DNA of 64,000 bases. It comes from Bilabrum cf. latius. Its lineage: Eukaryota. Each line of letters starts with the position of its first letter. The first letter of the stretch is position 1. Below, piece by piece: positions 1 through 64,000 of this stretch. The stretch lies in assembly GCA_965178125.1 (NCBI GenBank), contig OZ237741.1, forward strand, positions 1,302,001 through 1,366,000. Direction: 5' to 3'. Below the pieces are notes generated by a model. That model worked only from the letters and a program-made list of their open reading frames with translations, was not told the origin of the DNA and ran no database searches. The position numbers and the translations under genes are program-made.

Positions 1-2091
1 GGAAATGGCGCCGAACACGCCGTCAGTAGCGAGCAGCAGGAACGTGTCCGCGCGAGCGATGTGACGAGTGACGCACTCCGCGTGCGGAACCACCCCCACT
101 AGCTTGCCTTGCCCGAACCCCAGGCCACGGGATAGGGCCAGGCCGGGGCCCAGCTCACCGGGAGCTCCAGAGAACACGCGGGGCACCAGCCCGCGGGTGC
201 CATCGTCGAACCGCATGCACTCCACCCGCCCCCCCGCCGCCACCAGCCGCTTGCGCTCGTCTGGCCTGCCCGGGCGATGGTCCAGCGTCAGCGGGGTTGC
301 CACTACGGAACCTCCCCGGCGCCGCGCAGCCTCCTCCTCGAACCTCCGCGCCCTCTCCAGCGCTGCCTCGAATCGTTGAAGCACAGCCTCCCGGGCGACC
401 GACCTCTGCACGCGCAGCTGGTGCCTCGCGGAGAGGTCTGGTACCAGGGCACCGCTTGTTCCCTGGGCCTCTTCAACCCCACCGGGTGCAGGCGCGGCCC
501 CCGCCGCCCCCCGCAGCATCTGCACCACCTGCTCCACCCCAGCGGCGGTGACCCCACCCTCCCCTCCGCCGACACCCCCCCCCCCATGGCCCGTCCCAGG
601 CCGACTCAGGGGCCTGCCATCCTCGTCGTGGTACCGCAGTGACCGAGCCACGGCAGGCGGCACCGCGGGAAACTCGGGGAAACTCACGCTGCCCTCTGTC
701 CGCCTACCCCACCCATCTGATGCTGCGCCCCCTTGACCGTGCCTGCCACCGCCACCCGTTGACGACGGGCGCGAGCTGATGGCAGCCTCTCCAAGCACGG
801 TCATGGCCGTCTCGCCCAGCAGCTTCTGCGGCTCCACGCCCAGCCCTGTCGATCGACCCACCCCCGACAGGCCGGTGGACCCTCTGGAGCTCCCCGATGG
901 ATCGACGGTACCGCCAGCACCTGCATGCAATGCACCCGCACCCACACCCCGCCCCTGCATCTTCCTCCTCCTCGCAGCGTCCATGCCCCCCTGCATGCGC
1001 CTGAGCAGGCCCGCGGGAAGTGTGGCCGCAAGATCCAGGGGCCTCTGCCCGGCCAGTGCAGCCAGCGTGTCAGCGGTCCGCGCCGCGCTGCGCGCCCTTG
1101 CCACCGATGAGCTGAAGGCAGGCGCGAGGGAGGCATCCCCCCGCGCCCCCGCCACGCACCTGCACGAGCCCACGTGCGCCACCACGACGGTGTGGCCCCT
1201 GACCAGCAGAAGACAGGCCGACGCCCCCGACATGGAGAGAACAGCGGGGCCCAGCTGCTCGAGCAGCTGCTCATCCACGCGCTCGAACGCCCGCCGCATC
1301 GTCTGCCGGCACCGCTCGCTCCACTGGGCCAGGGCTTTGGCTTGTTCCCTGAGGATCCGCTTCTTCTCGGCCGCGCTCGTGTCATGGCTGGCCTGCCGGA
1401 TGCGGGCCGCGCTCGCCTCCTCGGTCCCTACCTAATCTGGGTCTGTGCTGCCTCCAGTGGCAGTGGCAGTGGCAGAGCCGGTGCCGGGCTTGGCCCCCTG
1501 CTGCTGGCCCGCGGGAGCACCTTCCCGCTGGCCGACGGGGCCACCCGGATTCGTCCCCCCGCCGCTGGATCCGCCCCTGGATTTCAAAATGGCCCGCAGC
1601 GCGCCCTCGTTCGCCTGCCTCGAGCCCGGCTTGACGAGCCTCGCGGAGCTGGAGGACGACGTCGCTGGGCGAGAGCTCGCCGCTGAGCCGGAGGCTGCCT
1701 TATTCGGTTTCTTTTTCAGCCGTCGTTTCTTTCGGCGCTTGCATACACGCAGAAGTGGATCTTTTGTCATTATATCTGCCAATGCAGTCGGCAGCAGCTG
1801 GGCTACACGGCCAGCCACGGCACCGCCCTCCGGCCCGTGCCCATCGATCACGGCCGCCAGCAGCTGACCCGCCGCACCAAGAAAATTCTCGATCACAAGC
1901 ACCCTATCGGACGAGGGTTCACCCCCGAGGAAGCTTGGTTCTCGCAGTGCGCCTGGCACCGAGGCGCACGACCAAGGCAGGCGAGGTGCGCGATTCCTCG
2001 TCAGATCCGAGCTGGCGTCAGGCCGGATCTCATCGACCGCTGCAAATACAGATGCCTTGTTTGAAATCGGCCTGGGCGGCCTTCTTGCCAT
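1..2091 (-). CDS. PP2C/PPM-family protein phosphatase with long low-complexity inserts; 3' end runs off the window; one in-frame TAG (1432-1434)
   Basis: One frame from ATG 2091 carries the motifs AVIDGHGPEGG, SGASACLLLVRGHTVVVAHVGSCR, LTLDHRPGRPDERKRLVAAGGRV, PGLALSRGLG and DTFLLLATDGVF. The TAG separates the DGHG motif from the rest of the domain. Confidence 0.85.
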
Positions 2092-2208
2092 TTTGGCTCT
2101 GCGAAGCAGGCTCAAGCGCCTCGAGTTTCCGTTGGGACAGCGAACCTCGAGCGAATCATCATCCCGTCCGACGGGATCTTCTCAGTTGGATTAGAGTAAC
2201 AACACACG

Positions 2209-3432
2209 ATGAACTATTTAGGTGCCTTGCCTTTGGTTACCATGCTTGTTGGAGCCGCAGCGCGGGACTGGCAAGTCGTTCGGCTAGACAACGCAACTGC
2301 TGCCGCCACCGGGGCCTACTGCCTGGCAGGCCCCGGTTCAAACCCTGCCTACTACATCAGCCCGGGTACTAACAAGACAGCGTTCAAGATTCATTTCCGC
2401 GGTGGCGGCTGGTGCTTTTCAGAGGAGGATTGCCTGAGGAGGAGCACAATGTACCTGGGCGATAGCAGACTCTGGCCAGACATTCCGACTAGCGATGAGG
2501 GAACAGATGGGTTCTGGGGAGATGATCCGGCTGTATCCGGGCAGTTTGCCGAGTGGACTACCATCTGGATGATATACTGCGACGGTACGAGCTGGACCTC
2601 GGACAGAACGGAGCCGCTGCAGGTGGAGAGCGAGACCATCTATTTTAGGGGCCGCAGGATCCTGGACGCGATCCTGGCAGATGCGGAGCAACGGCTTGGG
2701 CTGCTCACCAAATCGGACGCGGTGATCGTGGGAGGCACGTCGGCGGGCGGGCTGGCCACGTACCTGCACGCGTCCTACCTGCGGCAGCGCATCCGACCGG
2801 AGGCCAGCCTCCGGTTCATGCCCGACGCCGGGTTCTTTCTGGACGCGCCCGACACCCAGGGCGAGCACGCGTACCGCGCTAACTTCCAGGGGGCATACGG
2901 TCCCCAGCTGTGGAACGGCACCGGAGGCACGGATCAGGGCTGCATAGCGTCGTACCCATCTCAGGAGGCGTGGCACTGCTTCATGGCGCAGTACGCCTTC
3001 CCCTTCGCCTCCACCACGGGCGGCCCGTTCTACGTCCTGAACTCGATGGCGGACTCGTACCAGCTGGGGAACATCCTCAAGGTGGGCTGCAGCCCTGACG
3101 GGAACGCCCCGGGCAGCTGCAGCGACAAGCAGGTGCAGCAGATTCAGGACTACCGGCTGGAGATGGCGCAGGTGCTCTCGACGGTCGTGGTGGGGGGCGG
3201 TGCGGGCCACTCGGGGCTGTTCGCCACGGCTTGCTACCAGCACGAGGAATCCTGCAGGGACGGTGACTTTGACTCCGTCAGGGTTGGCGGCTCGACGGAC
3301 CGGGACAACTTCGAGGCGTGGTGGGTGCACAGCACGAGCGTGGGGGCGGGGGGCGACTTTGTCCGACTGGACGGGCCGTGGGGAAGCAACCCGACGTGCG
3401 ACTACAACATCACGCACCACGGATCATGCTGA
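2209..3432 (+). CDS. Secreted pectin acetylesterase/Notum-family hydrolase (407 aa)
   Basis: Signal-peptide-like N-terminus, FRGGGWC, YCDG, nucleophile motif GGTSAGG and DAGFFLD. Ends in TGA. Confidence 0.85.
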   Translation: MNYLGALPLVTMLVGAAARDWQVVRLDNATAAATGAYCLAGPGSNPAYYISPGTNKTAFKIHFRGGGWCFSEEDCLRRSTMYLGDSRLWPDIPTSDEGTDGFWGDDPAVSGQFAEWTTIWMIYCDGTSWTSDRTEPLQVESETIYFRGRRILDAILADAEQRLGLLTKSDAVIVGGTSAGGLATYLHASYLRQRIRPEASLRFMPDAGFFLDAPDTQGEHAYRANFQGAYGPQLWNGTGGTDQGCIASYPSQEAWHCFMAQYAFPFASTTGGPFYVLNSMADSYQLGNILKVGCSPDGNAPGSCSDKQVQQIQDYRLEMAQVLSTVVVGGGAGHSGLFATACYQHEESCRDGDFDSVRVGGSTDRDNFEAWWVHSTSVGAGGDFVRLDGPWGSNPTCDYNITHHGSC

Positions 3433-3622: not shown

Positions 3623-5759
3623 TCACCCCACCAGCACCGTCACCCCCGTGACCGGCGACCGCAGCACTATCTCCTCCGCAGCCCAGTCCACCACCATCGC
3701 CCGCTCCGCCTTCACCGCGGGAGGGTCGTCCCTGGCCTATGGGGGAACACCGAAGGAGGCGGCGGCGGGGGCAGTGCCGGGGCCTGCACCGGACTCGCTG
3801 GCAGGAACCGATGCAGGTGCTGCTGCTGCTGCTGCTGCTGCCATCATACCGGCTGGGTCTGGGTTGCTTGATCCCGCTCCGGAAGCAGGCCCGGAAGCAC
3901 TTGCATCCTGTTCTTCCTTGCCCTCTTCATCCTCGCCCCCCAGCTCCGGCCCTTGTTCCCTGAGCACCCCCGCGGCCCGCAGCCTCTCCCTCCTCTTCGT
4001 CTCCCGCTCCCGCTCGGCCTCCTCCTCCTCGTCAGAGTCGGTGTCGCTCCAGTTCTGCTGCGCGCGGGACCGGGACCCGGAGGAGCCCTTGTTGTTCCCC
4101 AGGAGCGGGTTGCCCCGGCTCAGTTTCACCACGCGGTGCTTCCGCGGGACTGCAACTTCGTGCGATGCACCCATCGAGGGCTCCGTAGCCGAGCCTGCAG
4201 CGGTGGCGGCGGCGCCCTTCCCCCCGTCAGTGCCGGGGCCTTTGACTTCGCCTGTGCCTGCGTCATTGCCTCCTGCGTCTGCGGCCGCAGGTGTGCGCGA
4301 GGGTCGCCGCACGGGACGGGCGTCCTCCTCGTCCTCCTCGCTGCTGTCGCTGCCGGCCTCGTCCCCCCGCGCAGGTACCGCCACTTGCCCTGCTGCTGCT
4401 GCTGGCGCCCCGCTAGGAGTGGAACCTGCCTCGTCCTAACCCCCGTCTAGGTGGTAGCCCTGTACCTTGGCCACGGCTGCCTTCTCCTCCACTGCCGCCC
4501 GCAGCAGCGCCCCCCTCACCTGCTGGGACAGCGGGACACACGCCGCCGCCAGCCGCACCCTCCCGTGATACGCCACCGCGTTGCCCCTCAGGTCCAGCCA
4601 CGACAGGGCACACACCGAGTCCGGGGCAGACATGGCGTCTGCCATGGCCACGGCACCGTCGGTCAACGCCTGGTTCTCCCGCATGCACAGCGCCACCAGC
4701 GTGTTGTTGCCCCGCAGCGCGCCGGCCAGCTGCTCAGTCTCTGCGGGCCCGATGCCGTTGTCGTCCAGCCGCAGTGACGTCAGGCTCGTGTTAGTGCGGA
4801 GGGCAGTGGCCAGCGCGGCCGTGGCGGTGGCGCCTAGCCTGTTCCGGCTCAGATCCAGGTGCCTCAGCGTGGGGTGGGACTGCAGCGCGCCGGCGAGGGC
4901 CATGGCTCCCCGGGGCGCCGCGTGAAAGTTGCTCATGTTGTTCTCCGAGAGATTGAGCGAGAACAGGGGCACTCCCTTCCTCCGGACGTCCTCGTTCTCC
5001 GCCTCCTGCCACTCCTCCGCGTCGATGGCCTCCGCCACGGCCGCGGCGCCCTCGCTCCGGAGCCGGTTGCAGGAGAGGTCCAGGTGCCGCAGGAGAGGGA
5101 GCTCGGCCACGAGGGCGGCCACGCTGCTGCCGGCTGCGAGAGGGGAGCACGGGCGGGCGTTCAGAAAAATGGGGATACCAGCGGCAGCGGAAATTTCTAG
5201 TGAATGCGGGCGCAGTTGCAAGTCGGGCTCTTGGTGCTCACCCGTCCGCGTCATCATGTTACCGCGCAGATCCAGGTGCGTGATGCTCGTGTGTCCCTGC
5301 AGAGCGTGGCAAAACTCGCGCACCGGATCCATGGACGAGCCAAAGTCTGACAGGTTTGCATTGTTGCACCGCAAGGCAGCGAACGACCTGGATGCGCGCG
5401 AGCGCAAGATCGGGGCCAGAACCTTCACGCCCGCTTTCCCCAGCTCAATGTGGGCCAAGTCTAGCACTTGACTTGAGTCAGCTGCCTTGAGGGATTCGAT
5501 GAATCCATTCGGTGCTGCGTGATGAGGCGGGACCGGTTCACGGTTCAGTCGCAATCCAAGACCTATAGAGAAGCGCTGCGGGAAGTATTGGACCACACAA
5601 CTTACGATCGCTCATCTTCGCGCTTGCATCTCCAGCTGATGCGCCCGGAGAAGCCTTTCCGGTCCCTACACCGAACGTATTAGACAGTGCGGTTCGAATC
5701 AGACCTTCATCAAGCTTAGATATTGCATCAGAGAGTTCTTCAGCGCCTGCTTTTGACAT
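3623..5759 (-). CDS. RNI-like/NLRC3-like leucine-rich repeat protein with acidic low-complexity tail; probable introns ~5515-5605 and ~5133-5240; in-frame TAGs at 4436-4438 and 3737-3739
   Basis: Repeats such as LRHLDLSCNRL, LFSLNLSENNM and LTSLRLDDNGIG. The frame continues through both TAGs to TGA at 3623-3625. Confidence 0.75.
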
Positions 5760-6757: not shown

Positions 6758-9700
6758 TCAGATCAGGTTGGTGTCCCACTTGCCGTTACCCCCCAGGACC
6801 ACCCATTGCGTGGAAGCCCCTGGGTAGGACCCCAGCTTGATCCACTGCCCCGCGAACGCAGAGGCAGTGGGACTCACCTGGTAGTTGGGAGCCAGTGCGC
6901 CGAATGTGGCCACGTAGAGGGTCTCCAAGGTGGGGGCGTTCGCGTCCCCCGGGCCCCCATGGTCCAGGAAGTGGCCGTACAGGACCGTGGGAGTGCCAGA
7001 GTTGCCGAGGCTCTGCCGGATGCCGATGTCGCAGGCCGGAGGCAGGCACCCCGTCCCCTGCAGCACGATGGTGACTTCGCACCCGTGCTTGCTCGTGCCT
7101 GCGGTCACCTCGGGCAGCCGCACCACAGACTGCGCCGTGGCGAATCCAGCGGTGGACCCGCTGTTCCCCAGCGACACGGTGCTCCCGCACTCGTCGTGCG
7201 ACAGGTCCACGATGGTCCCGTCGTTGTCGCTCGCGGCGTCTCGATGCGCCAGGCGGCCCCTCAGCGCCCCAACGTAGGCAGACACAGGGTCGCCGTCGTC
7301 GCCCACCTGCCCGTCCAAGTAGGTCCCTGCGGGGAGAATGAGCTCGCCCGTCACCGTGGTGGCTCCGGAGCCCGCCACGCTGAGTCTCTCCGTGTAGGTG
7401 CCTCCGCCCCCCGTGTCTTTGGCCTGCACCGAGAGCAGCGTGTAGTCAGAGGTGGTGTCGGACTCGCCCCGGACACGCACAACGCCCTCCCCCGTGCCCT
7501 GCCCCGTGGAGGTGTGACGAACATCCAGGGCCAGCGTGGCATCGGCAGACGCGAGTGACACGAGCCCGCCGTCCTGGATGGTGGCTCCACCCGCCACCAC
7601 CGTGAGCCCCCCCGCAGTTGCCTGCAGCCCGCCGGTGGCTGCCACCACGGTGCTGCCCTCGATGGTGCTCGTGCTGGCCGTGATGTCACCAGCCAGCACA
7701 TCGATGCCGTCTGCGTCCACCTGCAGCCCACCCTGCCGCAGCCGCAGGTGCCCGTCTCCAAACCAGTCGCCCAGCGCCACCCCGGCGCTGTCGCGCACCC
7801 GCAGGAAGGAGAATCCCTGGCTTGCGGCAGTGTCGGTCCGCAGGTCCAGCACCGCGTCGTCGAAGGCCGTGGAGGTCGCGCGCAGGGTGGCCAAAGGGGC
7901 GCCCGTGTCGTCAGACACCACGCTCAGCATGTCATCGGTCACGTGCAGCCCGCCCGAAGACACGGTGGCGCCTCCGTCAGAGACCACGAGCCCACCGTCC
8001 GAGATAGTGAGCCCCCCCCCGCTGATCTCCTGCCCCCCGGCCTGCACCTCAAGGGGCCCGCGGTTCACGTTCAGCTGGCCCGTGCCCATCAGCTCGAGGA
8101 CTGTTCGCTTGCCCTCCCCGTCGTTGTCAAAGTCGGTGAACGCTTCCAGGAGCTTGAAGGTGCCGGCGCCGTCCAGGTCTGCTTGCAGTGTCAGCAGTGT
8201 CTGGGAGAATGCCTCCGAGGCCGCGTGCAGGGTGGCCACGCCACTCGAGGGAACGCTGTTTGCAACGCTCAGGGCCCCATTGCCAACCACTAGGTCTCCA
8301 GTATCTACCTCCAGCCCCCCAGCGGTCACCTGCAGCCCCCCCGACATGATGGTCTGGCCCCCGCCCATGACGCTGAGCCCCCCGGAGTTGATCGTGATGC
8401 CCAGCTCTGCCCGCATCCGGCTGGACTGTAGGAGGCCGTCCCCCGTCAGCTTGAAGACCGTGATGCCGCTCTATATGGCCCGCATGAAGTTGAACTGGGA
8501 CGAGCCGGGGAAGGTGGACTGCAGCCGCACCACGTCAGAGACGAAGCCAGGCTCCATCACCCCGAACACGGTCTGGGGCGAGTTGACGGCGGTCGTGCCT
8601 GACTGGGAGCTGCCCACGGTCATGTGGCAGGCCACTCCCTCCGACCCTGGCAGGCAGAAGCACAGGCCAGTGGTCACGTCGCACGTGCCGATGCCCCCGC
8701 ACATGTCGAACTCCCTGTATCCCGGCCGGGTGACCTCCCCGTCGGTGGCGATGAGCCAGGACGCGCCCAGGGTGTGATGAGTGACCGAAGTGAAGGAGAT
8801 CTCGGCGCTTCCTGCGCTGATCATCGTGGCTGTGTTCCCCGAGGAGGTTGCGACCATGTCGAGTGGCCCGTATGACACCCCGTTGATGATGTAGCTGAAC
8901 TGGTTGGGGCTGCTCGAGGCGTCCGTCACCTGGATCTTGATGGCAGCCGCCGAGTACCCGTTGGCCGTGTAGCTGATGCTCTGCACGTCGATGTCCGTCC
9001 ACCCGCAGTCCACTGCGGTGTCCGCAACCATGCTCATGTCGCAGCTGAACAGGGTAATGGGGAGGTCCCCAGTAGGCCGGAAGAGGTTGTTCTCAACGCT
9101 GCGGGCGGACTCGAGGGTCAGCTTGATGTCAAAAGTGTTGGTGCCAGCCCCTCCCGCCAGCACGGGGGTGCATTCGACCGCTGACACGAGACTGGAGGCC
9201 TCGATGGCGGCCTTGCAGGCAGAGGCGGTGAGGGCTGTGCCTGCGTGCAATGCACCCACGTCGATGGGGTTGGCGGTGTGGCCCGCGATGCGGAATTGGG
9301 CGAGTTGCGTGCCGTCCGCGGGCACCGAGGTGGCACCCGTGGTGTCTATGGTCAGCCGGACGGCCCGCTGCTGCTGCTCCGTGGTCAGTGGGTTGTCGCC
9401 CCTTGGGCACACCGCGATGGAGCATCCCGGCCCCGTGCGGCCCCAGTTGCACACGCAGGCGTGGGAGACGTACTCGTCCCACACTCTGGCGCTGGAGACC
9501 GTGCCTCCGTACTTGGGGCCGATTCCGTCGCCTCGCACGCCCGGGTCACCATCGGCGCCGTACGCCTCGCCAAGGGAGCGGATGGAGGTGCACGAGCCGT
9601 GCAGCCCGCACTCGTTCGGGCATTCGATGCGGCCGCATCCGGCCCCCGCATGGCCGTCAAAGCACTCGCACTGACCTGTTTTACGATTGCAAATGCCTGC

Positions 9701-9949
9701 TCTGCCGCACTCGGCGTGTCTGTGCGCGTCAATTCCGAAGTATGCTGTCGAATCGAGTTTGCCAACGAACGCGGTCGCTTTGTCGCACGTTCGCATGGAA
9801 CAATCCGGTCCGGTGTATCCGTCGAAGCAAGTGCAGAGATCTTGTAGGTCACATGTACCATGCCCGCTGCAGTGGCGCGGGCACGAGCCTCTGGACTGCA
9901 GGGAGAGGGCCGCAATGGTTGCAAGCAGCTGCAAGATGAAGTGGCTCAT
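6758..9949 (-). CDS. Secreted EGF-like protein of the stramenopile mastigoneme (Sig1/Ocm1-like) type with a C-terminal GGLxVxxG repeat region (~1,063 aa); in-frame TAG 8471-8473
   Basis: Signal peptide, then CPRHCSGHGTC...GPDCSMRTC...AHRHAECGRAGICNRKTGQCECFDG...CPNECGLHGSC...WD...CPRGDNP, and a later CGGIGTCDVTTGLCFC. ORFs 8471..9949 and 6758..8416 share a frame joined through the TAG. Ends in TGA. Confidence 0.75.
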
Positions 9950-10205
9950 GACTCGCCTGCCACGATTCTTTCGTTGCTTCGTATTGTAGCGGTTTTAAAT
10001 CAGCCAAGCTTCATTTGCATCGTGGTATTTGCTGATCGAAACGACTGTTGGACCTGCGGTGCGCTTGCTTTTGCGAGCTGAGCGTTCGGCCAGTCTGAGT
10101 GGTTCCGCCAATGGCAGTGTATTGCGCGGCGCCGCCTCACCGACGTGGACGAGTTGCTGTTTCGCAATAGCCAACGATCTCATCCATTGCTTGTCCTGGA
10201 TAGCA

Positions 10206-11666
10206 ATGATTGGGCGTATTCATAGCCAATTGAATCCATCCGGCGTGTTTCGAAGATTGAGAGCTTGTGTGCCTAGAGTAATTGTCCCTGCAAAGTCTTA
10301 TAGGTGTATTGGATGCTCGGCGACGGCTGCAAAAGACAATTTGGAAGGTATTGATGCGTATCCGCAGCCAAGTGTGGGACTTTCATCGCTTGAAGGGATA
10401 GAGAGGCGAAATGACGGGAAGCATAGCAACGAAATGCAGCCGAGTGCAGACGAGGAAGGGCCCACGTTTTCGTCTACAGTTCCAACACTGAGGCGGAAAC
10501 TCACGAAAGCAGAATTAATCCGCGCATAGGAAAATATGCCAGTCAGTAGGGAGCCGTTGTTTCGCCCGCAACCGTTCACTTGGTACGAATACCACACAAA
10601 GTGGTTCTTGCGAGCAGTCGGGGCCTACTCGAAGCACGGGCAAATTGCTGAGAATGTCAGGACCGTTTGGAGGAGCGTGGAAGAGCACGCAACCGCTGAC
10701 TGCTGGTTCGAAAGCCTGGGCATCCGGAGGACTTTCATGACTGAGCACGCCTTGCTGGCCCTGCACATTTGGATGCTGCACCGGCGGCACATGGTGGACT
10801 ACTACGCTGACGGGGTCTTCAGCGGCCGTTTGCAAGACTAGGAGTTGTTTGATGTCTTCTGGAAAGACACTGAGAGGCGCATCCGGCACGCGGGCGTGCC
10901 GTCGACGTCGATCAACCGTCAGTTGGAACAGCTGCAGAAGCACACGCTGACGGATTTCCTCGAGTACGACGTGGCAATCAAGCAGGACGACGACAACATG
11001 GAGCTCTCCGGGGCGCTCTTCAAGTCCATCTTTTAGGAGGACGACGAGGCGGAGGTCGAGGACGTCATCGTGCTGGCGGACCACGTCAGGGCAGAGTTCA
11101 CGAACCTTCTCACGCAGCCAGCCGAGGACGTGTACAGGGGTTGGATCTCGTGGCTGCCCGCCGTGGGCGAGACGCAGAGCGAGAAGCTGGAGCGGCAGAA
11201 GCGCATGTTCGAGGGGGAGTGGAGGGAGGCGATGCTGCCGGACGGGAAGGTCTATTTCTTCAACACGCACACGGGCCGGTCCCGCAAGGGGGACGACCCG
11301 CCCACGCCGGAGGAGGGCCTCTACGGCCGCAGGAGGTTCGCGCTGGCCCACCACCTGCAGGCGCTCGCGGACGACGGGAAGATCGACCAGGCCATGGTGA
11401 ACCCCGGGAACCTTCGCTCCTTCGCCGCCGAGGAGCTTCCCGAGCACTTGTTGGAGGAGGGCACGTTCGACATGAGCAAGGTGGTGCTGCCCGGGGGCGG
11501 TGATGCTGCCTCCAGGTCCAGGCAGCTCGCGCTGGAGACTGACGACGATAGCACTGCGGGCTAGCTGGGCCAATCGGATGGACAGGGCTAGCTGGAGCAG
11601 CAGGGGGCGGGGACAGGAGGTCGTGGGTAGGCTCAGGCGGGAGGGGAGAGCGCGGAGAATAGATAA
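10206..11666 (+). CDS. UQCC1: Ubiquinol-cytochrome c reductase chaperone (Cbp3/UQCC1 family) with a WW-like domain (~486 aa); six in-frame TAGs
   Basis: Arg-rich presequence-like start and the motifs FMTEHALLALHIWMLHRR, LQD*ELFDVFWKDTERRIRHAGV, YDVAI...LSGALFKSIF and LADHVRAE. TAGs at 10527, 10839, 11034, 11562, 11589 and 11628. First non-TAG stop is TAA 11664-11666. Confidence 0.8.
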
Positions 11667-23000: not shown

Positions 23001-23181
23001 TGATAGCTCCTTGGTCATATAGCACTTGCTTATTCATGCAAATCAGCGGTATGATCAGGCCAGAAGCGCTGTGGCGCTTCAGGACACGATCTCCACCAGA
23101 CGGCAGGTCATACCCGGCTGGATGATCCGGCGTGAGCAGGTACCTATGCGAAGCGCACTGCCCATGCAGCAACGACTACAT
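17062..23181 (-). CDS. CRBN: Cereblon homologue (LON-N-like region plus split CULT/thalidomide-binding domain), ~2,040 codons, 15 in-frame TAGs
   Basis: One frame from ~23181 to TGA 17062-17064, interrupted only by TAG. ASHRYL...IIPLIC...ITPGQRVPL resembles the CRBN N-terminus. IRCSQCG...FENPGG and FSWFAGYAWQSMHCPRCLHHLGFAF match the CULT domain. Start uncertain (an upstream exon is possible). Confidence 0.75.
21520..21616. repeat. Coding tandem repeat, 21-bp unit x ~4.6 (ACTCTGACTGCCATACCCATA), encoding GSQSYGY repeats in the cereblon frame
   Basis: Directly visible; one unit has a single substitution. Confidence 0.95.
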
Positions 23182-26840: not shown

Positions 26841-27358
26841 GCGAGCGCGATGTGATGAGTGATGCGTGTGATGAGTGAGGGTTCCGTGGTGCCGATCGTG
26901 CGTCGTGTGTCGCGTGTGGCTGTGGCTGGGCCTGCTCGGCGGGGGCTTTGGGCGGATCGCAGACGATAGACAAGCCAGCCGGGGCGGGGCTCAAGGTCGT
27001 GGCCCCCATGGCAATGCGGCGCGACGGGGCGTCCCATCCCATTCAACCATGCATTGGGTGCCCTGGCGGTCGGAACTGGCCCGGTTTATTCCAGTTGGAA
27101 ATGGAGGTTTGCATTGCTGATAGGGAGTCTTATTACTTTGTCAATGCGTGACCGCACACTGTTCGTGACCGCTCCACGTTCTGCAGCCCTATCCTTGCCT
27201 GCTCGTCGCCGTCGCAAACCAATCTGGATATTGTTTGCCATAAGTGCACGCAACCAGCCTCGGCATCCGATCGACTGGAAAGGTAAAGATTCGGATTGTG
27301 ACGTCGCGTCGTACTGCGTAGAAGGCTCAGTCACATCCTGCTTGTTTAACTAGCTCGG

Positions 27359-45459: not shown

Positions 45460-45661
45460 GGTCGTGGCAGATCTGTGTGCGCCTTATGCGCCGGATCACA
45501 CCCGTAGCACGTGTAGCTGTAATAAAAGGCTTACCTATTCTCATACATAGCTGGACTGGTCGACCTAGCACAATGCGTTCGGATGCCTTCCCATTCGACG
45601 GCGTCGCTCGAGAATCGTGCGGAACCACCCGCAGCGCGGCGCCTACGTACTCACTCATCAC

Positions 45662-54813: not shown

Positions 54814-56769
54814 TCACCCTCTGCCCTCCTTGGCCCCCGTGCCATCGTCCCCGTCCACCTCGTTCCCCCCGCCGCGGTGTCGATCCCCCGGGGGGCCCTC
54901 CCCCGTCTGCAGGTAGTGCGCGAGTTTCTGCATCCCCTTCCGCACCGAGGGGGCCATCTCCTCCAGAAAGCGGTCCTGCTCCTTGCCCACGGGGTGGTCT
55001 GGAGCATCCAGATACTGCGCGGGCGTGCTTGCGTACCGCCCGAGCACGTCCTCCTCCTCCTCGACCTCCTCCTATCCTGCAACAGCACCGGCCCCGCCGC
55101 ACGCGCGACCGGGCTGCCCGGACTCCGGCCCCTCGGTGCCCGCACTCGTCACACTCCTCATGGCCTTGTCCCCGTCGAAATCCACAAAGGCCAGTCGGGC
55201 GCATGGTTCCTCCGGCAGCCGCCCGAAGGCAGTCCCCGGCAGCATGGCCACGCCCGTCTGCCTCAGGATGTCCTCCATCAGCCAGGCCGATGTCATCTCC
55301 TCCCCGGGGGCGCGTGTCTCCCGCTAGTAACGCGCCCTGACCGGCTCCAGCCCGGGGCACTTGCTGAAGTCGGGGAAGGTGTAAAATCCCCCGGCTGGGT
55401 CCTGCACCTTGGCCCCCGCCTCCTTGAGCGTGCGCACCGTGTACGAGGACACGAGCCGCAGCACGTGGTTGGCGCGGTCCAGGTACCTGAGCACGGCCTC
55501 CCCCCTGCCTTGCTCGTCCTGGAACGCGCCCATGGCGGCGTGCTGCACAGGGGCGCACACGCTCGAATAGGTCTCCGACGCGGCGGCGATCATCGTGTTC
55601 CGCAGCCAGGAGAGCTCCTTGGGGAACACGAAGGCTCCGAGCCTCCACCCGCCCGCCCCCGCCCACTTGGAGATGCCATCCAGCACCACCGTGCCCTCTG
55701 GGTAGTGCGCCGCGATGGACTTGTGCTGGCGAGTGTGCCGCAGGCCCAGCTTGGCCGACTGCTCGTCGTGGGGGTACTCCTCGTTGTAGGTCAGCCGCCC
55801 GTAGATCTCGTCCGATAGGACCAGGATCCCATGCCTCCTGCAGATCTCCGCGATGGCCTGCAGCTCGTCATCCGTGTAGGAGCTGCCCGTGGGGTTGCTG
55901 GGGTAGTTGATCACCAGCAGCACGGGATACTGGTAGGAGTACTGCGCCTGCTGCCTGAGGGCGTCGTCCAAGATCTCGGGGTGCAGCTTCCAGCCCACCT
56001 CGGCGGACGTGTCGAGCCACAGTGCCCTCCTGCCGAGCATGGAGCTCTGCGGCTAGTACGTGACCCAGGAGGCGCTCTGCAGCATCAGGTCCGCGTCCAG
56101 GCACAGCTGCATGAGAAAGATGAGCTCCTTGGTGCCGGGGCCCACCAGCACGTTCTCCGCGGTGTACTCGTAGGGGCCCCCGACCCTCTTGGTGGTGTGC
56201 TCGGCGATGGCCTCCCGGAGAGGGAGCATTCCCGCGGTTGGAAGATACGTCTTGTTGTGCGCGTTCGCCTTCATGTCCTGCGGAACGCGTCGTAAGCACT
56301 AGTAAAACGAGTTGTGATCCGCTTATGGGGAAAGTAGCAGCGAGATTGGCGCGGCATGATTCGCCGAGTTCTCAAGCCGAAACCGCCCGATCTCAAAGCT
56401 CACGTCAACCATGAATTCTGGCGGAAGAAACGGGCTTTCTCCTAGCCCAAAACGGTGAATAGTTTGTCCTCTAGCTTGAAGCGCCCGGGATTTTTCGCTG
56501 ATTGCGAGCGTGGGAGACTGGGGGACCCTCAGCATATTTTGGTGGATGTGGGCCTGCTTCCAGGCGGGCTGTTTCCCTTCCTGTACGGAGCGTCGCGGCG
56601 ACGAGCCCGATACCCGGCGATGACTTGCTCGCTAGATACCTTCCTGCCTATTTCTGCTCCCCGAGTCAGGTCTGACGGTCGTTGCTTGACTGGATGATGA
56701 CCTGAACGACCGCCGTCTCCAACAGCGCAAACCTACCGATCTCGACAAGATAAGCTTGCGAGATTGCAT
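54814..56769 (-). CDS. Class I/II PLP-dependent (aspartate-type) aminotransferase with presequence-like N-terminus; intron 56278-56403; in-frame TAGs at 56632, 56053, 55324 and 55072
   Basis: SPTLAISEKSRAL...FGLGESPF, YLPTAGMLPLREAIA, VGPGTKELIF, SWVTY*PQ, NYPSNPTG, LSDEIYG, PLP-Lys motif GISKWAGAGGWRLG, GGFYTFPDF and GVAMLPGTAFG. Ends in TGA. Confidence 0.9.
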
Positions 56770-57031: not shown

Positions 57032-58309
57032 ATGGCTGCCGACGGAGACTTTGACGAATCCTTTGCTGGGGTGCAGGAGGCTGACGACGCAGGCAGTGAC
57101 TTCTCCCTGTCATCCGAAGAAGGTGGTGCATTTGAAGACGATGACGACGTGAGGACATGCAGGATATTCCATGGAGTACTCGCTTTTGTCATGAAGTAAA
57201 GTCACTATGCTTTCCCACTAAAAATGGTGTCTGCTTGCTTTGTCGCTGGATACGCGCAGGATTTTGATTTTGAGGAGGAGGAGAAGCCGAAACCCAAATC
57301 AAAAAAGAAGAAATCCCCAGCTAGAAAGCAGGCATCTCCCAAGGCCAAGAAGTCTGCACCGGCCAAGAAAAAAACAACTGCTTCAAAATTCAAGTCGGCG
57401 GGCAAATCTTCGGGATCCGCAAAGGCGAAAGCCGCGCCCGCGCCCAAGAAGAGCAAGTTGAATCCGGCCTCAATGGAAGACGGGGGCTTGGCAAGCGCGG
57501 CCGCTGGAAAGTTGGACAAGGGAAGCATTAAGGAAAAAGACGCAGGCCCCGTCCTGCTACAGTATCTCGAAGATCAGAACAGGCCTTACAGCGCGATCAA
57601 TATTCACGACAACCTGCACGGCGCCGTGAAAAAGGTGCAGGTGACGCGCGTGCTGGACTCGCTCGCCTCCAGCGGGTAGCTACGGTCCAAGCAGTGGGGT
57701 AAGTTCAAAGTATTTTGGCCGGACCAGGCCCGCTTCGGCGAGATATCCGAAGAGTCCCTCCGCGAGGCCGAGGGCCGCCTGGAGGCAGCCAGGAAGGCAG
57801 CCGCGCAGGCCAAGGACGACAGGAAGCGTGCGGAGGGGGCGGTCGCATCCCTGGCCAGCGAGCCCACGGACGCGCAGCTGGAGGAGCTCCTGAAGCAGCG
57901 GGAGGCGGAGGTGTAGGCGCTGCGGGCCAGGGTGCAGCAGCTCAGGGAGCTGGCCGGGGATGGCGCCGGGGCGGGGGCGGGGGCCGGGGCGGGATCCACG
58001 GGGCAGAGAGCGGGGGCGGGAAAGGCGCCGGAGGGGCGGGAGGAGCTGGAGGCGCGCATGAACCGGTATGTGAAGGTGTGGCGGCAGCGCAAGCGCAAGT
58101 GCGACGAGGTGACAGGTATGATCGCGGAGGGCCTGGGCCTCAAGAGGAGGAGGGTGGAGGAAGACGTCGGGGTAGAGACGGACCAGGATGTGGGGTGTCC
58201 GGAGCCAAAGGCGTTCCTGCAGTTGCCGATCGAGGCGCCTGCAGGGGCCGGGCTGCAGGGCTCCTCGTCCTCATCGTCGTCGTCGGCTGCCGCGGCAGGA
58301 GGCACCTGA
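57032..58309 (+). CDS. HOP2: Meiotic recombination factor HOP2 (TBPIP/PSMC3IP) with acidic and Lys-rich N-terminal extension; intron 57149-57259; in-frame TAGs at 57677 and 57914
   Basis: Winged-helix region LLQYLEDQNRPYSAINIHDNLHGAVKK...LDSLASSG*LRSKQWGKFKVFWPDQ, a coiled coil, then VWRQRKRKC...VGVETD. Ends in TGA. Confidence 0.85.
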
Positions 58310-58528: not shown

Positions 58529-58579
58529 TGCGCACATACATGTGCCTTGACTGGATCTACTCCACCGCGCAAGGTCCTG

Positions 58580-61500
58580 TCACCAGTCCGTCCGCAGGGC
58601 CAGCAACCCCCGCACCTCGGCGGCACTCAGCGAGTTCCGTTCCCCTGCCTCCTCGTCCCCGCGCCACCATTCCGATTCTGAGTCGCCACCCCCCGAGTCG
58701 CCCTTCCCGCTCCCTCCCGGCGCGGTCACAGACACAGACCCAGACCCAGACCGAGACCTTGTGCCTGTGCCCGTGCCCGTCGTTGCCTCCGCCGCCGCCG
58801 CCAGCTCCTCCAGGGCCTCGCTACGACTCGGAGCCGAAAGAAGGCGGGCTGCCAGCTGCAGCCTGCGGAACTTCGCCCTCGCCGCGGCGCCCCCCACTGC
58901 CTCGAAGAAGTCCGCCAGCGCCCGCGAGTGCCTCGCGAGCGCCCGCGCGCCCCCCCCCACGAACCGCCGCTTGCCCACCATGCCTTGCATACGGCGCGCC
59001 ACCGCCTGCGCCGCCCGCACCGCTACCTCCCTGGCCGCCTCGGGCAGCAGCAGCAGCTCCACGGGGGCCATGGCTCTCGCGAGAGGCTCGAGCACCTCCT
59101 CCTGGAAGAGCGCGTCCTGCTCCTGGGGGCCCAGCCGGTGCCCCTCCCCGTCGAACCGCACCAGGGGGGCCCTCCCCGCCATGGCCTCCAGGGCGGAGCG
59201 CAGCTGGGGCGCGTGGAACATGGCGAACCGGCTGACGGCCGCGTCGCTGAGTTCCTGGAGGGCACTGGCGGTCTGCTGCAGCTCGTGCACGGCCGCGGTG
59301 GCCTTGGCAACCGCGCCGGTGGACGCTCCCTCCCCTTGTTCTCCGAGTGCCTGTTCCCTGGCGTGCCGCACCAGCCCCGCGCACTCCTCCGCAGCCTCCC
59401 AGGCGGAGTTGACGGCCAGGGCCCGCCGGGCCACCGCTGCCGACAGCCGGGACAGGCCTTCTGCGGCCTCGGCGGCGGTGGCCCCACCTGGCGTGCCCGG
59501 TGTGGCAGCCTCGCCCCCCGAGCCCAGCCCGCCCCCCCGCATGGGGGTCAGCGGGGCGACTCCCCCGGCCCCCGACACCCCGGCGCGCCGCGGGGAGCCG
59601 GGGGTACCGGGCGCAGAGGCCCCTGCCCTCCCCGCAACACCCCTCTCCACCGCTTGTTCCCTGGCTGCCCGCGCGAAATCGTCCGCCGCCAGCCGGATGG
59701 GGGTTGCCAGTAGCGCCTCACCGGCGGATTCGAGGGCGGCGGCGGCGGCCCTGGCCTGCGCCTGGGCGGCCCCCGTGCGCATGGAAGCGAGCCTGCGGGC
59801 GGCAGGACCCAGCTCCAGGACCCCGCCTCCGAATCTCTCTCCTCCTCCCGCCGCTCCTCCCCCTCGCTTGCCGGCGGCAGTAGACCTCCTGGCAGCAGCA
59901 GCAGCAGCAGCAGCGGCAGCATTGCCCCCTCCTGTTCCCTGCAGCGCGGCCTCGGCCTGCACCCTCAGTCGCTCGAAGAGGCCGTCCCCCAACTGCGCCG
60001 CAATGCCGTGCAGCACGCCGCACAGGCAGTCCGCGTTCCCCGTCGACAGCGCCCTGTCCACGCACACCCGCGCCACGTACATGCAGTCCCCCACCGCGCT
60101 CGTGGAGCACGGCAGGGAGCCCCCCACCTCCTCGAGGGCAACCGCCCGCCGCAGCCCAGCAGACAGGAGGGCCCCTTCCGCTCGACCGTACGAGGCCGCC
60201 AGGGCACCGCACGAGGCAGCCAGCTCCCTCCACTCCCCTTCGTCCCCTCGAGCGCGCACTGCCACTGGCCCATCCTCGGCCCCCTTCCCCTTCCCCTTCC
60301 CATCGCCCTGCTGGACGCCCCCCCTCCCCCTCCCCCTCTCCACCGCATCCTCGGCCGTGTCCCTGAGCACGGCAAGGAACCGCTCGATGCGCTGCAGCAG
60401 CAGGGCACTGCCGGTTGCAACCGCAGTCAGGCTCGCCTCCGACTCCGAATCCCCTCCTCCCTCCTCGTCGCCCTGCTGCTGCTTCCCGTCACTTGTTCCC
60501 CTTGCACTGCCGCGCCGGCCCTTGCCCTTCCCACTCGCTGCCGATGCCGCCAGCGCCCCCCGCACGGCCGGCCCGTCCACGAACGCATCCACCGCCCTGG
60601 CCAGCGGCGCCTCTGCCGCTCTCCTCGCGGCCCCCAGCAGTGCCAGCGGGGCGGAGGGGTCGTCGGCGAAGGCGGTCTGCGAGAGAACAAGAGCCTCCCT
60701 GAGAACAGCGAGCACAGCGTTGAAGCCGGCAGACAGGCCGTCCACGGCGCCGCGCGCGCTGCCAGATGCCATGTTCCGCAAGGCCTCCTCCCAGCGCGGC
60801 GCCCCACCGGCCAAAGCACCAGTCCCAGCAGCACCAGACCCAGACCCAGCCGCCGCAGCCTACCCTGTGAGGTCGGCCCCCTCCCGATCGCTCGCGAGAC
60901 CCTGTGCTCCCTCGCGCCCCCCCTGAGAGGGAGAGGGAGAGGGGGGGGAGGGGGACGGCGTGCCGAGGGAGGCCATGTGCGCAGCTGCCACGTCGTTCAC
61001 CCGCCGCTGCACGAACTGGAGGAAGAGCCGGAGCCCCTCGCTGCTGCGACCAATGAGGGCGAGCAGCTGGCAGTGCTCGCCCACGGCGGCAGCGTCGCCT
61101 GCCTCCATCGCCCGACGCAGCTTTGAGGCCACGGATCTGGCGGCTCGCTGCTCCATTTCGTCGAGCGAATCATCTCCGGCGGCGCCCGCCCCGTCCGACG
61201 GCCCACCGAGCGTCGCGCCCGGGAAGCTGCCCTGCACCTACCGGAGCCGTCTCAGGTGAGTGCAGGCCGCCCCCACGTCGTCGCGTGCAATGGCCTTCCT
61301 AGCATCTTCCCGACAAGAATCAATTTCGAGAATGTCGTCGACTCTTTCTACCACTGCGCGTATCCTCTCCCGCTTCCGCTACAGCTTGCCGATCCTGCTG
61401 GCGTGGTCGGACACGAGCTGCAGCTGACGCCTGAGACGCGATCGCGCCAAGTACAATTCGTCTTTGGCCGCCTCTAACTCAGGGATGGACGCTCTCACTG

Positions 61501-61630
61501 ACGCAGCCAGGCTGCTGCGATCGTGGGAGCTGGACTGCTGCCGCGCAGAATCGGACATCACTTCAGCCAGCCTAGCGCGCGCGTTCCTGGCTGCCAGCTA
61601 GAACGCCCCCGCCACATCGTACTGTGACAT
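58580..61630 (-). CDS. COG4: Conserved oligomeric Golgi complex subunit 4-like protein (~1,016 aa); in-frame TAGs at 61598, 61379, 61238 and 60860
   Basis: IRAVVERVDDILEIDSCREDARKAI...ACTHLRR, LLALIGRSSEGLRLF, TSAVGDCMYVARVCVDRALSTGN, ARAKFRRLQ and LSAAEVRGLLALRTDW. Ends in TGA. Confidence 0.75.
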
Positions 61631-62432: not shown

Positions 62433-62646
62433 ATGGCAGCAATGCACAGCATACCAGGTATTATGGTTCTCTGACATGCACACAGAACCCACCCAGTCAG
62501 CCGTTTGGATGACTTGCATCGCCCTGCACATGCACTGCCAAGCGGTGGACTATCCATCTCGCGGGGGGCCCCCCGGGCGCGTGGCCGGCACCATCACAAT
62601 AGCTTCGAGCGTACTGTATTCACGCTATTGATTACCACTGCAATCC

Positions 62647-64000
62647 TCACGACTTCCACACGAGCACTTTATGCGCCGCGCCCGCCGCCCTCGACAGCAG
62701 CACGGCAGCCGCGGAACCGGCCCCGAGACCCCCTCCCTCCTTGGCGAACGAGCTCGCTCGCGCCGCCGCCTCGTGCCCTTTCAGCTCCAGCGCCTGCGCG
62801 CGGGCGGTGGGCAGTGCACACATGGCGGACACGGCCCTGCAAGCCTGCGCCGAGGCAACGCCGGCGGCCCTCGCGGCTGCACGGGGGGCCTCCGCTGCGG
62901 TGGTGCGCGCTAGCTGCGAGCCGGCGATGGACGCCGGCGACGCAGCGGAGACCGCAGATCCCGCCGCGCCATCGCCGCTGCTTGCCGCCAGGAGCTTGGA
63001 GGGGTCAAGCACCCCCACCAGCGCACTCGTCACACCTGCCTCGTGGAACGCACGCTTGGCGTCGTCGTCCACCGCCGCCAGCGACACCAGGGAACACAGC
63101 TGGCCCAGGGCACGCACCGCTCCCATCCAGGCCGCCGCCCCCGCACTACCCCCCGCTCCCCGCGCCGCCTCGGCCCATGCCTGGAGCTGTGTCCCCACCG
63201 TGGGGCAGCCCCCCTCCTTGACGAAGGCAGCCTTGCCCCCCGACGGCACGGTGAGGCCCACGAGGGCCCTGGCCGCTGCCTCCACGATCCCTGCATCGGC
63301 TCCGGGTCCCCCTTTCTCCCTCGCGGCCAGCAGCCGCAGCACCGCGTCGATGGCACCCGCGGCCAGCGCCCCCTCGCAGCCGCTCCCACTTGCCGCCTGG
63401 GAGCAGCCGGCAAGCGATTCCAGCACTAGCCGCAGGCACCGAAGATCTTTCTCCGTGCCACACCGCTCGCAAAGCAGCTTGGGATATTCTGCGTCCACTA
63501 GGCTGTCGCAGGCGTCCCCCTGGGCCCTGGCCATCGCCTCGACGCCGGTCAGGGCCGAGAGGCGGGTGGCGGGGTCGCCATCCACAACGAATTTCCCGAG
63601 CCCAGAAAGAATGGCGCCCCTATGTTTACTTTCAACCAACCACATCCTACCTGTGGACTGCGCCATGGCGTCTCGCAAGCAATCAGAGGCTCGTCGGCGC
63701 GCCTCAACCGCAGCGAGCTGGTGCAGCTCCGAAATCAAAGTCAACATTCCGGCATCCGCCGCCTCCCTGCAAGCAGTTGGCCCTGGTATTAATCTCTAGC
63801 TGCGCTGGAGCGCGTTCAATATTACAATTTTGTCGCGTTTTGCGACCGCGGTGCGTAATCTTGACACAAGCTCTGGAAACCTGTCTCGCTCGAAGGCGAG
63901 GGTAACCGTGGAGGCCCCTTGCGGCTTGAAGTTGGACCTAGTGGCATGAACCGCATATACATCGCTAACAAATGCATCTGGAGGCCCGCCTGCAGCCGCC
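62647..64000 (-). CDS. RSPH14: Armadillo-repeat radial spoke head protein 14-like; 5' end at or beyond the window edge; in-frame TAG 63796-63798
   Basis: VTLAFERDRFPELVSRL...ALQRS*RLI, ARM-like helices, and C-terminal AAHKVLVWKS resembling the RSPH14 ...WKP end. Ends in TGA. Confidence 0.6.

What the first reader, a model, noticed from the sequence alone, without database searches (positions are those of the whole stretch)
1432..63798. Variant nuclear genetic code: UAG reassigned to a sense codon (Gln) in a probable stramenopile
Seen in sequence: about 60 in-frame TAGs in about 17 independent genes on both strands, including conserved housekeeping genes (PSMA5, COG4, UQCC1, BBS9, aminotransferase, HOP2). 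Recognisable domains continue in the same frame on both sides of the TAG. A 14.9-kb myosin exon has 12 TAGs and a 6.1-kb cereblon frame has 15, with no TAA or TGA. No gene I could trace ends at TAG. Established knowledge: nuclear codes that reassign UAG alone are rare (UAG=Gln in the fornicate Iotanema spirale, UAG=Leu in an uncultured rhizarian, some phyllopharyngean ciliates), and UAG=Gln corresponds to NCBI table 15. Inference: the organism is a stramenopile, a group in which I know of no such code. This could be an undescribed independent reassignment, which would need a tRNA-Gln(CUA) and an eRF1 that ignores UAG.
Basis: partly seen in the sequence, partly recalled or inferred. Interest (0 to 1): 0.97.

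Follow-up and report, generated by a model that had tools for sequence, protein, structure and literature searches.

The report
UAG read as glutamine, stramenopile nucleus
This GC-rich protist, whose nearest named relative is the stramenopile flagellate Cafeteria, uses the stop codon TAG as an ordinary glutamine codon inside its nuclear genes, a rare change of the genetic code that my searches did not find reported for stramenopiles.

Summary
In 15 gene frames (16,466 codons) there are 51 in-frame TAG, 0 TAA and 0 TGA. The other two frames of the same stretches predict about 61, 18 and 216. A 52nd TAG sits in a proteasome alpha-5 exon, at a site where 73 of 73 homologues carrying the motif have Gln.

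Contigs from three other runs lack four GT..AG introns, so they derive from spliced RNA. They show no letter differences from the window, and listed pieces cover 11 of the TAG sites.

A relative in three metagenome contigs (about 77% protein identity) has in-frame TAGs at other positions. Of 11 well-aligned TAG sites whose partner codon is not TAG, 8 pair with CAG (Gln), 2 with Arg and 1 with Ala. Gln beats the next residue by about 16 log-likelihood units. All 16 frames end at TGA (14) or TAA (2).

Cafeteria is the best named hit for 2 of 2 proteins checked.

No tRNA-Gln(CUA) or eRF1 could be examined. Seven literature searches found no stramenopile nuclear UAG reassignment. Verdict: a real UAG=Gln code (as in NCBI table 15) in a new lineage.

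The parts
44463..45548 (-). Proteasome alpha-5 (PSMA5) gene. Exons 44463-45155 and 45337-45418, plus an upstream exon ending at 45535 with its ATG near 45548. In-frame TAG at 45364-45366 in '...GRLF[TAG]VEYA...'. Ends at TGA.
   Evidence: Sequence read. Introns 45156-45336 and 45419-45534 are skipped in contigs of X6 and X7. 73 of 73 homologues with the motif have Q at this site. PF00227 relatives found.
10206..11666 (+). UQCC1 (ubiquinol-cytochrome c chaperone) gene with 6 in-frame TAGs, starting at 10527, 10839, 11034, 11562, 11589 and 11628. Ends at TAA.
   Evidence: PF03981 match aa 239-382 spans two TAGs. The relative's frame ends at TAA at the equivalent place.
11861..14575 (-). BBS9/PTHB1 gene (the 5' exons lie further upstream). 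TAGs at 13733-13735 and 12299-12301. Ends at TAA.
   Evidence: Four PTHB1 Pfam domains. 746 codons align with L002, giving 7 TAG sites in one or both species. Sibling P0156 has Q at aa 281.
54814..56276 (-). Class I/II aminotransferase, last exon. TAGs at 56053-56055, 55324-55326 and 55072-55074. Ends at TGA. The TAG at 56299-56301 lies in intron 56277-56402 and is not coding.
   Evidence: PF00155 E 1e-39, aa 15-379. PDB relatives. Spliced contigs X5 rec 11, X6 rec 17/18 and X7 rec 24/25 cover the sites with 0 other letters.
57260..58309 (+). HOP2/TBPIP gene, second exon (intron 57149-57259). TAGs at 57677-57679 and 57914-57916. Ends at TGA.
   Evidence: PF07106 aa 115-172. Mouse Hop2 2mh2 aligns across the first TAG. 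Spliced contigs X5 rec 12 and X6 rec 19.
58580..61627 (-). COG4 gene. TAGs whose first base on the minus strand is at 61600, 61381, 61240 and 60862. Ends at TGA.
   Evidence: COG4_N aa 92-147 and COG4_m. Contig X5 rec 13 (60447-61659) covers all four with 0 other letters.
28427..43411 (+). Giant frame of 4994 codons: divergent myosin-like head, IQ-like repeats, RCC1 repeats and much low-complexity sequence. 12 in-frame TAGs. Ends at TGA.
   Evidence: Two TAGs sit in Gln runs ('HH[TAG]QQQQQQ', 'AS[TAG]HQQQQ').
17062..23190 (-). Frame of 2042 codons with a cereblon-like CULT motif. 15 in-frame TAGs and weak codon bias. Ends at TGA.
   Evidence: ln P(no TAA/TGA) = -37 by off-frame rates.
45761..50671 (+). 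Protein kinase gene. TAGs at 48227, 48560 and 49010. Ends at TGA.
   Evidence: PF00069/PF07714. Contig X5 rec 9 (47314-48401) covers 48227.
6758..9994 (-). EGF/teneurin-like secreted protein gene. TAG at 8471-8473. Ends at TGA.
   Evidence: Syntenic homologue in L002 and L004.
3623..5611 (-). Leucine-rich-repeat protein gene. TAGs at 4436-4438 and 3737-3739. Ends at TGA.
   Evidence: Coding signal continues after the last TAG.
1..2181 (-). PP2C phosphatase gene (runs off the window). TAG at 1432-1434.
   Evidence: PF00481; TAG position.
24956..27085 (-). Not a gene: a long antisense frame with 9 TAGs, opposite the PX-domain gene 25056-26840(+).
   Evidence: GC3 periodicity fits the + strand frame. 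PF00787 on the + strand, nothing on the - strand.

Best explanation
The nuclear genome in this window uses a variant genetic code in which UAG is an ordinary glutamine codon, while UGA and UAA remain the terminators. This matches NCBI table 15.

Shown here: TAG occurs inside conserved coding sequence at about the unconstrained rate. It survives into spliced transcripts. It alternates with CAG between close relatives. It sits at an invariant Gln of the proteasome alpha-5 subunit.

Inferred from how other such codes work, and not tested: a tRNA-Gln with anticodon CUA, one base change away from the abundant tRNA-Gln(CUG), decodes UAG, and eRF1 has lost UAG recognition.

The trait is shared by at least three related lineages: the window, a sibling about 96% identical, and a lower-GC relative about 77% identical seen in metagenomes. 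Their nearest named relative is the bicosoecid stramenopile Cafeteria, whose nuclear genome paper reports a non-standard code only for the mitochondrion.
For: (1) Stop codon counts. 15 frames, 16,466 codons: TAG 51, TAA 0, TGA 0, against about 61, 18 and 216 expected from the off-frames.

(2) Eight TAGs lie within single Pfam domain matches of five genes.

(3) Transcripts.
- Contigs of runs X5, X6 and X7 (two studies other than the likely source) skip four introns with GT..AG ends that the DNA run X1 keeps.
- The table of other letters is empty.
- Listed pieces cover 11 TAG sites: 45366, 48227, 55074, 55326, 56055, 57677, 57914, 60862, 61240, 61381 and 61600.
- PSMA5, which carries a TAG, has the highest depth in those runs.

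(4) Gln.
- PSMA5 site: Q in 73 of 73 homologues with the motif, out of 120 listed.
- Window against metagenome relative L002/L003: 14 TAG sites. One is TAG in both. Of the 11 well-aligned sites with a non-TAG partner, 8 pair with CAG, 2 with Arg and 1 with Ala. Two further sites lie in a poorly aligned tail (V, E).
- lnL is -14.4 for Gln and -30.2 for the next best, Lys.
- Sibling P0156 has Q at BBS9 aa 281.
- Two TAGs lie in poly-Q runs.

(5) Terminators. 16 of 16 frames end at TGA (14) or TAA (2). UQCC1 ends at TAA at the same place in the window and the relative, after three TAGs in the window's tail. Coding signal continues after the last TAG of the aminotransferase and LRR genes.

(6) Fragmented database proteins. 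Standard-code gene calls of these lineages stop exactly at TAGs: P0269 ends before aa 759, P0266 before 281, P0231 before 547, P0238 before 699, and P0003 before the relative's UQCC1 TAG.

(7) Placement. Cafeteria is the best named hit for UQCC1 (61% identity) and PSMA5 (67% identity). In the PSMA5 tree the window plus two relatives are sister to Cafeteria at 91/82.
Against: - No tRNA gene is present in the window or in the nine related loci, and no genome is held. The decoding tRNA and eRF1 are therefore unseen.
- Distant homologues do not support Gln at most TAG sites.
  - In 143 BBS9 representatives, Q is the commonest residue at none of the 6 alignable TAG sites. It is second at one, and the seventh site falls in a gap.
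  - PDB aminotransferases have P or E at aa 90.
  - Mouse Hop2 has K.
  - UQCC1 aa 281 aligns with A, E, K and K.
  - These are variable sites, so they are weak evidence either way.
- Three of the 11 close-relative pairings are not Gln.
- The runs called RNA here are not on record as RNA. I infer it from the spliced contigs.
- Placement rests on two proteins and a single-gene tree without strong support. No rRNA is present in the window.
- 16 gene ends cannot exclude occasional termination at UAG.
Confidence: 0.9

Rival explanations
1. Ambiguous code: UAG is read as Gln inside genes but still terminates some genes, depending on context or position near the 3' end, as described for ambiguous stop/sense codes in some ciliates.
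For: Not excluded by the data. Frames were delimited by TAA/TGA, so a true TAG terminator followed by a short open tail would be missed. UQCC1 has three TAGs within its last 34 codons, and the LRR gene has one 37 codons before its TGA.
Against: - Coding signal continues after the last TAG of the LRR and aminotransferase genes.
- The UQCC1 frames of the window and the relative end at TAA at the same place.
- Domains lie downstream of the last TAG in HOP2, BBS9 and the kinase.
- 16 of 16 frames reach TGA or TAA.
Confidence: 0.06
2. UAG is a sense codon for an amino acid other than glutamine (for example Lys, Glu, Arg or Leu), as UAG=Leu in an uncultured rhizarian or UAG=Ser in Scotinosphaera.
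For: At several variable sites, distant homologues carry K, E, A, S or P rather than Q. Two close-relative pairings are Arg and one is Ala.
Against: - The invariant-Gln PSMA5 site, 73 of 73.
- 8 of 11 pairings are with CAG, and lnL for Gln exceeds the next residue by about 16.
- Q at BBS9 aa 281 in the 96% sibling.
- TAGs lie within poly-Q runs.
Confidence: 0.02
3. No code change: the TAGs are removed or repaired (introns, RNA editing) or lie in pseudogenes, or they are assembly errors.
Against: - Spliced contigs from three other runs keep the TAGs, with no letter differences.
- TAA and TGA are absent from 16,466 codons, which pseudogenes or introns would not show.
- Independent metagenome contigs of a relative show the same habit at other sites.
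Confidence: 0.01

Closest known systems
NCBI translation table 15 type code (UAG=Gln, UAA and UGA stops), as reported for the fornicate Iotanema spirale, the ciliate Protocruzia tuzeti and two phyllopharyngean ciliate lineages (passages of PMC11687900; PMC5304391 seen only as a listing and abstract start)
   Same: UAG alone is reassigned, and to glutamine. UAA keeps its stop meaning, so the usual coupling of UAA and UAG is broken.
   Different: The host lineage is different: a stramenopile close to Cafeteria. The genome is GC-rich (67%), and TGA is the main terminator (14 of 16 frames).
UAR=Gln codes (NCBI table 6: many ciliates, ulvophycean green algae, Hexamita, Streblomastix, Amoeboaphelidium; passages of PMC11687900)
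   Same: A stop codon is reassigned to glutamine. This presumably happens through a tRNA-Gln whose anticodon differs by one base from a normal tRNA-Gln.
   Different: Here TAA is not a sense codon. There are 0 in-frame TAA where about 18 are expected. Two genes end at TAA, one of them at a position conserved with the relative.
UAG=Leu in an uncultured rhizarian, and UAG=Ser in the green alga Scotinosphaera (passages of PMC11687900)
   Same: UAG alone is reassigned in a nuclear genome outside the ciliates.
   Different: The amino acid differs. The data here favour Gln strongly over every other residue.
Cafeteria roenbergensis / C. burkhardae nuclear genome (passages of PMC6972860)
   Same: It is the nearest named relative by two proteins. 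It shares a very high GC content (about 70%) and few short introns.
   Different: The passages I read report a non-standard code only for the Cafeteria mitochondrion (UGA=Trp). The Cafeteria-like contig L004 has 0 TAG in 1,976 codons of three supported genes.

Membership tests
UAG=Gln nuclear code (NCBI table 15 type) | In-frame UAG inside conserved protein-coding genes, with homology continuing in the same frame on both sides | tested here: met
   8 TAGs lie within single Pfam matches of 5 genes. There are 51 TAGs in 16,466 codons of 15 frames.
UAG=Gln nuclear code (NCBI table 15 type) | UAG positions correspond to glutamine in orthologues | tested here: met
   PSMA5 site: 73 of 73 Q. 8 of 11 close-relative pairings are CAG, with lnL favouring Gln by about 16. 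Q in the 96% sibling. Distant homologues are uninformative at variable sites.
UAG=Gln nuclear code (NCBI table 15 type) | UAA and UGA are kept as terminators and are absent from coding frames | tested here: met
   0 TAA and 0 TGA in frame, against about 18 and 216 expected. 16 of 16 frames end at TGA or TAA.
UAG=Gln nuclear code (NCBI table 15 type) | UAG is no longer used as a terminator | tested here: inconclusive
   No frame needs a TAG terminator, and the coding signal or a conserved end lies beyond the last TAG where this was checked. However, 16 gene ends are too few, and the frames were defined by TAA/TGA.
UAG=Gln nuclear code (NCBI table 15 type) | The TAG codons are present unchanged in mature mRNA | tested here: met
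   Intron-less contigs of X5, X6 and X7 cover 11 TAG sites with no other letters. That they derive from RNA is inferred from the splicing.
UAG=Gln nuclear code (NCBI table 15 type) | A cognate tRNA-Gln with anticodon CUA | not testable with these tools
   No tRNA in the window or in 9 related loci. No whole genome is held.
UAG=Gln nuclear code (NCBI table 15 type) | eRF1 N-domain changed so that UAG is not recognised | not testable with these tools
   eRF1 is not in the window, and no genome is held.
Stramenopiles, near Bicosoecida | Orthologues group with bicosoecid/stramenopile sequences | tested here: met
   Cafeteria is the best named hit for UQCC1 and PSMA5, and the next named PSMA5 hits are mostly ochrophyte stramenopiles. 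In the PSMA5 tree the window is sister to Cafeteria at 91/82, which is below the strong-support mark. This rests on only two genes.
Stramenopiles, near Bicosoecida | 18S rRNA or multi-gene phylogenomic placement | not testable with these tools
   No rRNA or other Rfam match in the window. No genome is held.

The most novel reading that the evidence does not exclude
This is the first nuclear stop-codon reassignment in stramenopiles. It would be an independent origin of the rare UAG-only=Gln code, in a clade of bicosoecid-like flagellates that spans species from 53-56% to 67% GC and is also present in environmental metagenomes. Its GC-rich setting (TGA the main terminator, CAG the main Gln codon) makes it a natural test of how UAG can be uncoupled from UAA. 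It also means that standard-code gene calls for this clade in public protein databases are systematically truncated.
Probability: 0.6. Interest if true: 0.82.

Novelty: new member of a known kind. Interest (0 to 1): 0.78.

Why it matters
Nuclear code changes are rare, and cases where UAG and UAA have different meanings are rarer still. The passages read in PMC11687900 list only a handful.

A further independent case, in a major eukaryotic group with none on record in my searches, adds a data point on how stop codons are captured. It offers an apparently culturable flagellate lineage in which tRNA-Gln(CUA) and eRF1 changes can be studied next to standard-code relatives such as Cafeteria.

There is also a practical consequence. 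Public proteins from these organisms are cut at TAG, so annotation and phylogenomic matrices need table 15.

Tried and rejected
- Whole genome: none is held, so there was no genome-wide codon inference and no tRNA or eRF1 search.
- No tRNA in the window or in L001-L009, and no Rfam family in the window.
- The look-up of sequencing runs: no RNA holder listed.
- The BBS9 word-index search returned only 1 hit, because low-complexity words swamped it.
- Distant-homologue tabulation for BBS9 (143 representatives, after leaving out 7 near-identical fragments) gave no Gln majority at any of the 6 alignable TAG sites. PDB alignments gave P/E (aminotransferase aa 90) and K (HOP2). I set these aside as variable sites.
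- My codon-usage log-odds score separated sense from antisense frames poorly, so I used it only for flanks of known genes.
- Frames rejected as genes: 24956-27085(-), 55385-56305(+), 61563-62780(-), and L004 2156-5341(-).
- Halocafeteria seosinensis was considered as the source and set aside. The passages read give 46.8% GC and no mention of the code.
- Literature: seven searches found no nuclear UAG reassignment in stramenopiles or bicosoecids. The Vipsania preprint was irrelevant.
- Subscription journals and supplementary files were not searched and could hold such a report.

Full report
**What the window is.** The window is 67% G+C, with a 75% stretch at 28-44 kb. When TAG is allowed as sense, very long frames appear that the standard code breaks up. 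Pfam identifies real eukaryotic genes on both strands:
- PP2C, 1-2181(-)
- pectinacetylesterase, 2200-3432(+)
- an LRR protein, 3623-5611(-)
- an EGF/teneurin-like protein, 6758-9994(-)
- UQCC1, 9999-11666(+)
- BBS9/PTHB1, 11861-14575(-)
- a PX-domain protein, 24942-26840(+)
- a giant myosin-like/RCC1 protein, 28427-43411(+)
- a protein kinase, 45413-50671(+)
- an Mpo1-like protein, 50993-51979(-)
- an aminotransferase, 54814-56322(-)
- HOP2, 57200-58309(+)
- COG4, 58580-61672(-)

A proteasome alpha-5 gene lies at 44463-45548(-). The 6.1-kb frame 17062-23190(-) has no Pfam hit. It matches cereblon's CULT motif over about 33 residues at E about 2e-4.

**Checking the observation.** Over 15 gene frames (16,466 codons) I count 51 in-frame TAG, 0 TAA and 0 TGA. 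The other two frames of the same stretches predict about 61 TAG, 18 TAA and 216 TGA. TAG is thus essentially unconstrained in frame, while TAA and TGA are excluded.

Eight TAGs fall inside single Pfam domain matches: aminotransferase aa 90 and 333; UQCC1 aa 281 and 346; the PTHB1 hairpin aa 759; COG4_N aa 98 and 145; TBPIP aa 160.

- One TAG (56301) is in an intron.
- Several lie upstream of likely start codons.
- The 9-TAG frame 24956-27085(-) is the antisense of the PX gene, as the GC3 periodicity shows.
- Frame 61563-62780(-) has no coding signal.

These exclusions rest. About 52 TAGs remain in supported coding frames.

**Transcripts.** One run search found the stretch in 12 runs from 7 studies. 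I laid four of them on 43400-63399. X1, the likely source, covers the DNA colinearly. Contigs of X5, X6 and X7 come from two other studies. They skip 45156-45336, 45419-45534 and 56277-56402 (CT..AC, that is GT..AG on the minus strand) and 57149-57259 (GT..AG).

I take these contigs to come from spliced RNA, although the runs are not on record as RNA. The table of differing letters is empty for all four runs. Listed pieces cover 11 TAG sites in PSMA5, the kinase, the aminotransferase, HOP2 and COG4. The TAGs are therefore neither spliced out nor edited, and PSMA5, the most deeply covered gene, carries one.

**Which amino acid.** Four lines point to Gln.
- The PSMA5 TAG (45364-45366) sits in '...SPHGRLF[TAG]VEYA'. 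Of 120 listed homologues, 73 carry the N-terminal motif, and all 73 have Q there.
- A metagenome scan with UQCC1 returned nine loci. L001-L003 are one relative, with 87% identity in the core and about 77% over whole genes, and 53-56% GC. L002 keeps the gene order EGF-UQCC1-BBS9.
- This relative has its own in-frame TAGs. Codon-by-codon comparison of BBS9 and UQCC1 gives 14 TAG sites:
  - one is TAG in both species;
  - eleven are well aligned with a non-TAG partner, of which 8 are CAG, 2 are Arg codons and 1 is Ala;
  - two lie in a badly aligned acidic tail (V, E).
- Using the substitution counts of the same alignments, the log-likelihood is -14.4 for Gln and -30.2 for the next residue, Lys.
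- A third lineage, 96% identical (P0156), has Q at the window's BBS9 TAG (aa 281). Its called protein stops just before a window CAG, at aa 483.
- Two TAGs sit in Gln runs.

Some results give no such support. Distant homologues mostly do not show Q at TAG sites. In 143 BBS9 representatives, Q is the top residue at none of the 6 alignable sites. PDB aminotransferases have P or E. Mouse Hop2 has K. UQCC1 aa 281 aligns with A, E, K and K. These positions vary even among standard-code species, so they carry little weight, but they do not add support.

**Terminators.** All 16 frames with a 3' end in the window stop at TGA (14) or TAA (2). UQCC1 ends at TAA at the equivalent place in the window and the relative, even though the window has three TAGs in its last 34 codons. 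Coding signal continues after the last TAG of the aminotransferase and LRR genes. TAA is therefore a stop, not a second Gln codon, and nothing requires UAG termination. With only 16 gene ends, a dual role for UAG cannot be excluded.

**Who it is.**
- The UQCC1 search gave four hits. One cluster (61% identity) holds Cafeteria roenbergensis/burkhardae proteins.
- For PSMA5, the best named hit is again Cafeteria (67%), followed mainly by ochrophyte stramenopiles.
- A 25-row PSMA5 tree puts the window and two unnamed relatives as sister to Cafeteria, with support 91/82.
- Passages of PMC6972860 give Cafeteria about 70% GC and 1.7-1.9 introns per gene, with a non-standard code only in the mitochondrion.
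- The Cafeteria-like contig L004 (73% GC) has no TAG in 1,976 codons of three supported genes. This weakly suggests that the change is confined to the window's own clade.
- Halocafeteria (46.8% GC in the passages read) is not the source.

**Side effect in databases.** Standard-code protein calls of these lineages end exactly at TAGs. P0269 ends before aa 759, P0266 before 281, P0231 before 547 and P0238 before 699. P0003 ends before the relative's UQCC1 TAG.

**Mechanism.** Shown: UAG is translated, as Gln, in expressed genes, while UGA and UAA terminate. Inferred from established knowledge of other UAR=Gln codes: a tRNA-Gln(CUA), derived by one anticodon change from tRNA-Gln(CUG), plus an eRF1 that no longer binds UAG. 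Neither could be looked for.

**Novelty.** The passages read in PMC11687900 list these cases:
- UAG-only=Gln in Iotanema spirale, Protocruzia tuzeti and two phyllopharyngean ciliate lineages
- UAG=Leu in a rhizarian
- UAG=Ser in Scotinosphaera

No stramenopile is named. Seven full-text searches found no stramenopile or bicosoecid nuclear case. Supplements and subscription journals were not seen. The code itself is known, and the lineage appears new, so I class this as a new member of a known kind.

Noticed in passing
27735-43411 (+): A giant gene. A short upstream frame (27735-28391) reads like a myosin N-terminus (my reading of the sequence; no Pfam hit). It is followed by a 4994-codon exon with a P-loop-like 'GPSGGGKTE', a weak Myosin_head match, IQ-like repeats, RCC1 repeats and kilobases of Ala/Gly-rich low complexity, all within a 75% GC block.
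   Followed up: partly
L002 1-4674; L004 8013-16813: The gene order EGF-like protein, UQCC1, BBS9 is conserved in the 77% relative. EGF-like next to UQCC1 is also seen in a more distant 73%-GC contig.
   Followed up: partly
57009-58309 (+): A HOP2/TBPIP meiotic recombination gene is present and appears in spliced contigs of three runs. A passage of PMC6972860 says no sexual cycle is known for Cafeteria, the nearest named relative.
   Followed up: no
45337-45760, both strands: The first two PSMA5 exons (minus strand) lie inside the upstream part of the long plus-strand kinase frame. The three TAGs of that frame at 45548, 45566 and 45758 are therefore not kinase coding sequence.
   Followed up: yes
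L001-L003 against the window: Close relatives sharing the code differ greatly in base composition (53-56% against 67% GC). The lower-GC relative uses TAG more often: 6 TAGs in about 750 BBS9 codons, against 2 in 904.
   Followed up: partly
17062-23190 (-): The cereblon-like frame stays open for 2042 codons but has almost no codon bias (mean log-odds 0.00), and its TAG density equals the off-frame rate. It may be a weakly expressed or fast-evolving gene, or it may hold unrecognised introns.
   Followed up: no
P0003, P0156, P0231, P0238, P0266, P0269: Public protein predictions for this clade are fragments cut at TAG. Anyone using them for phylogenomics gets truncated genes.
   Followed up: yes
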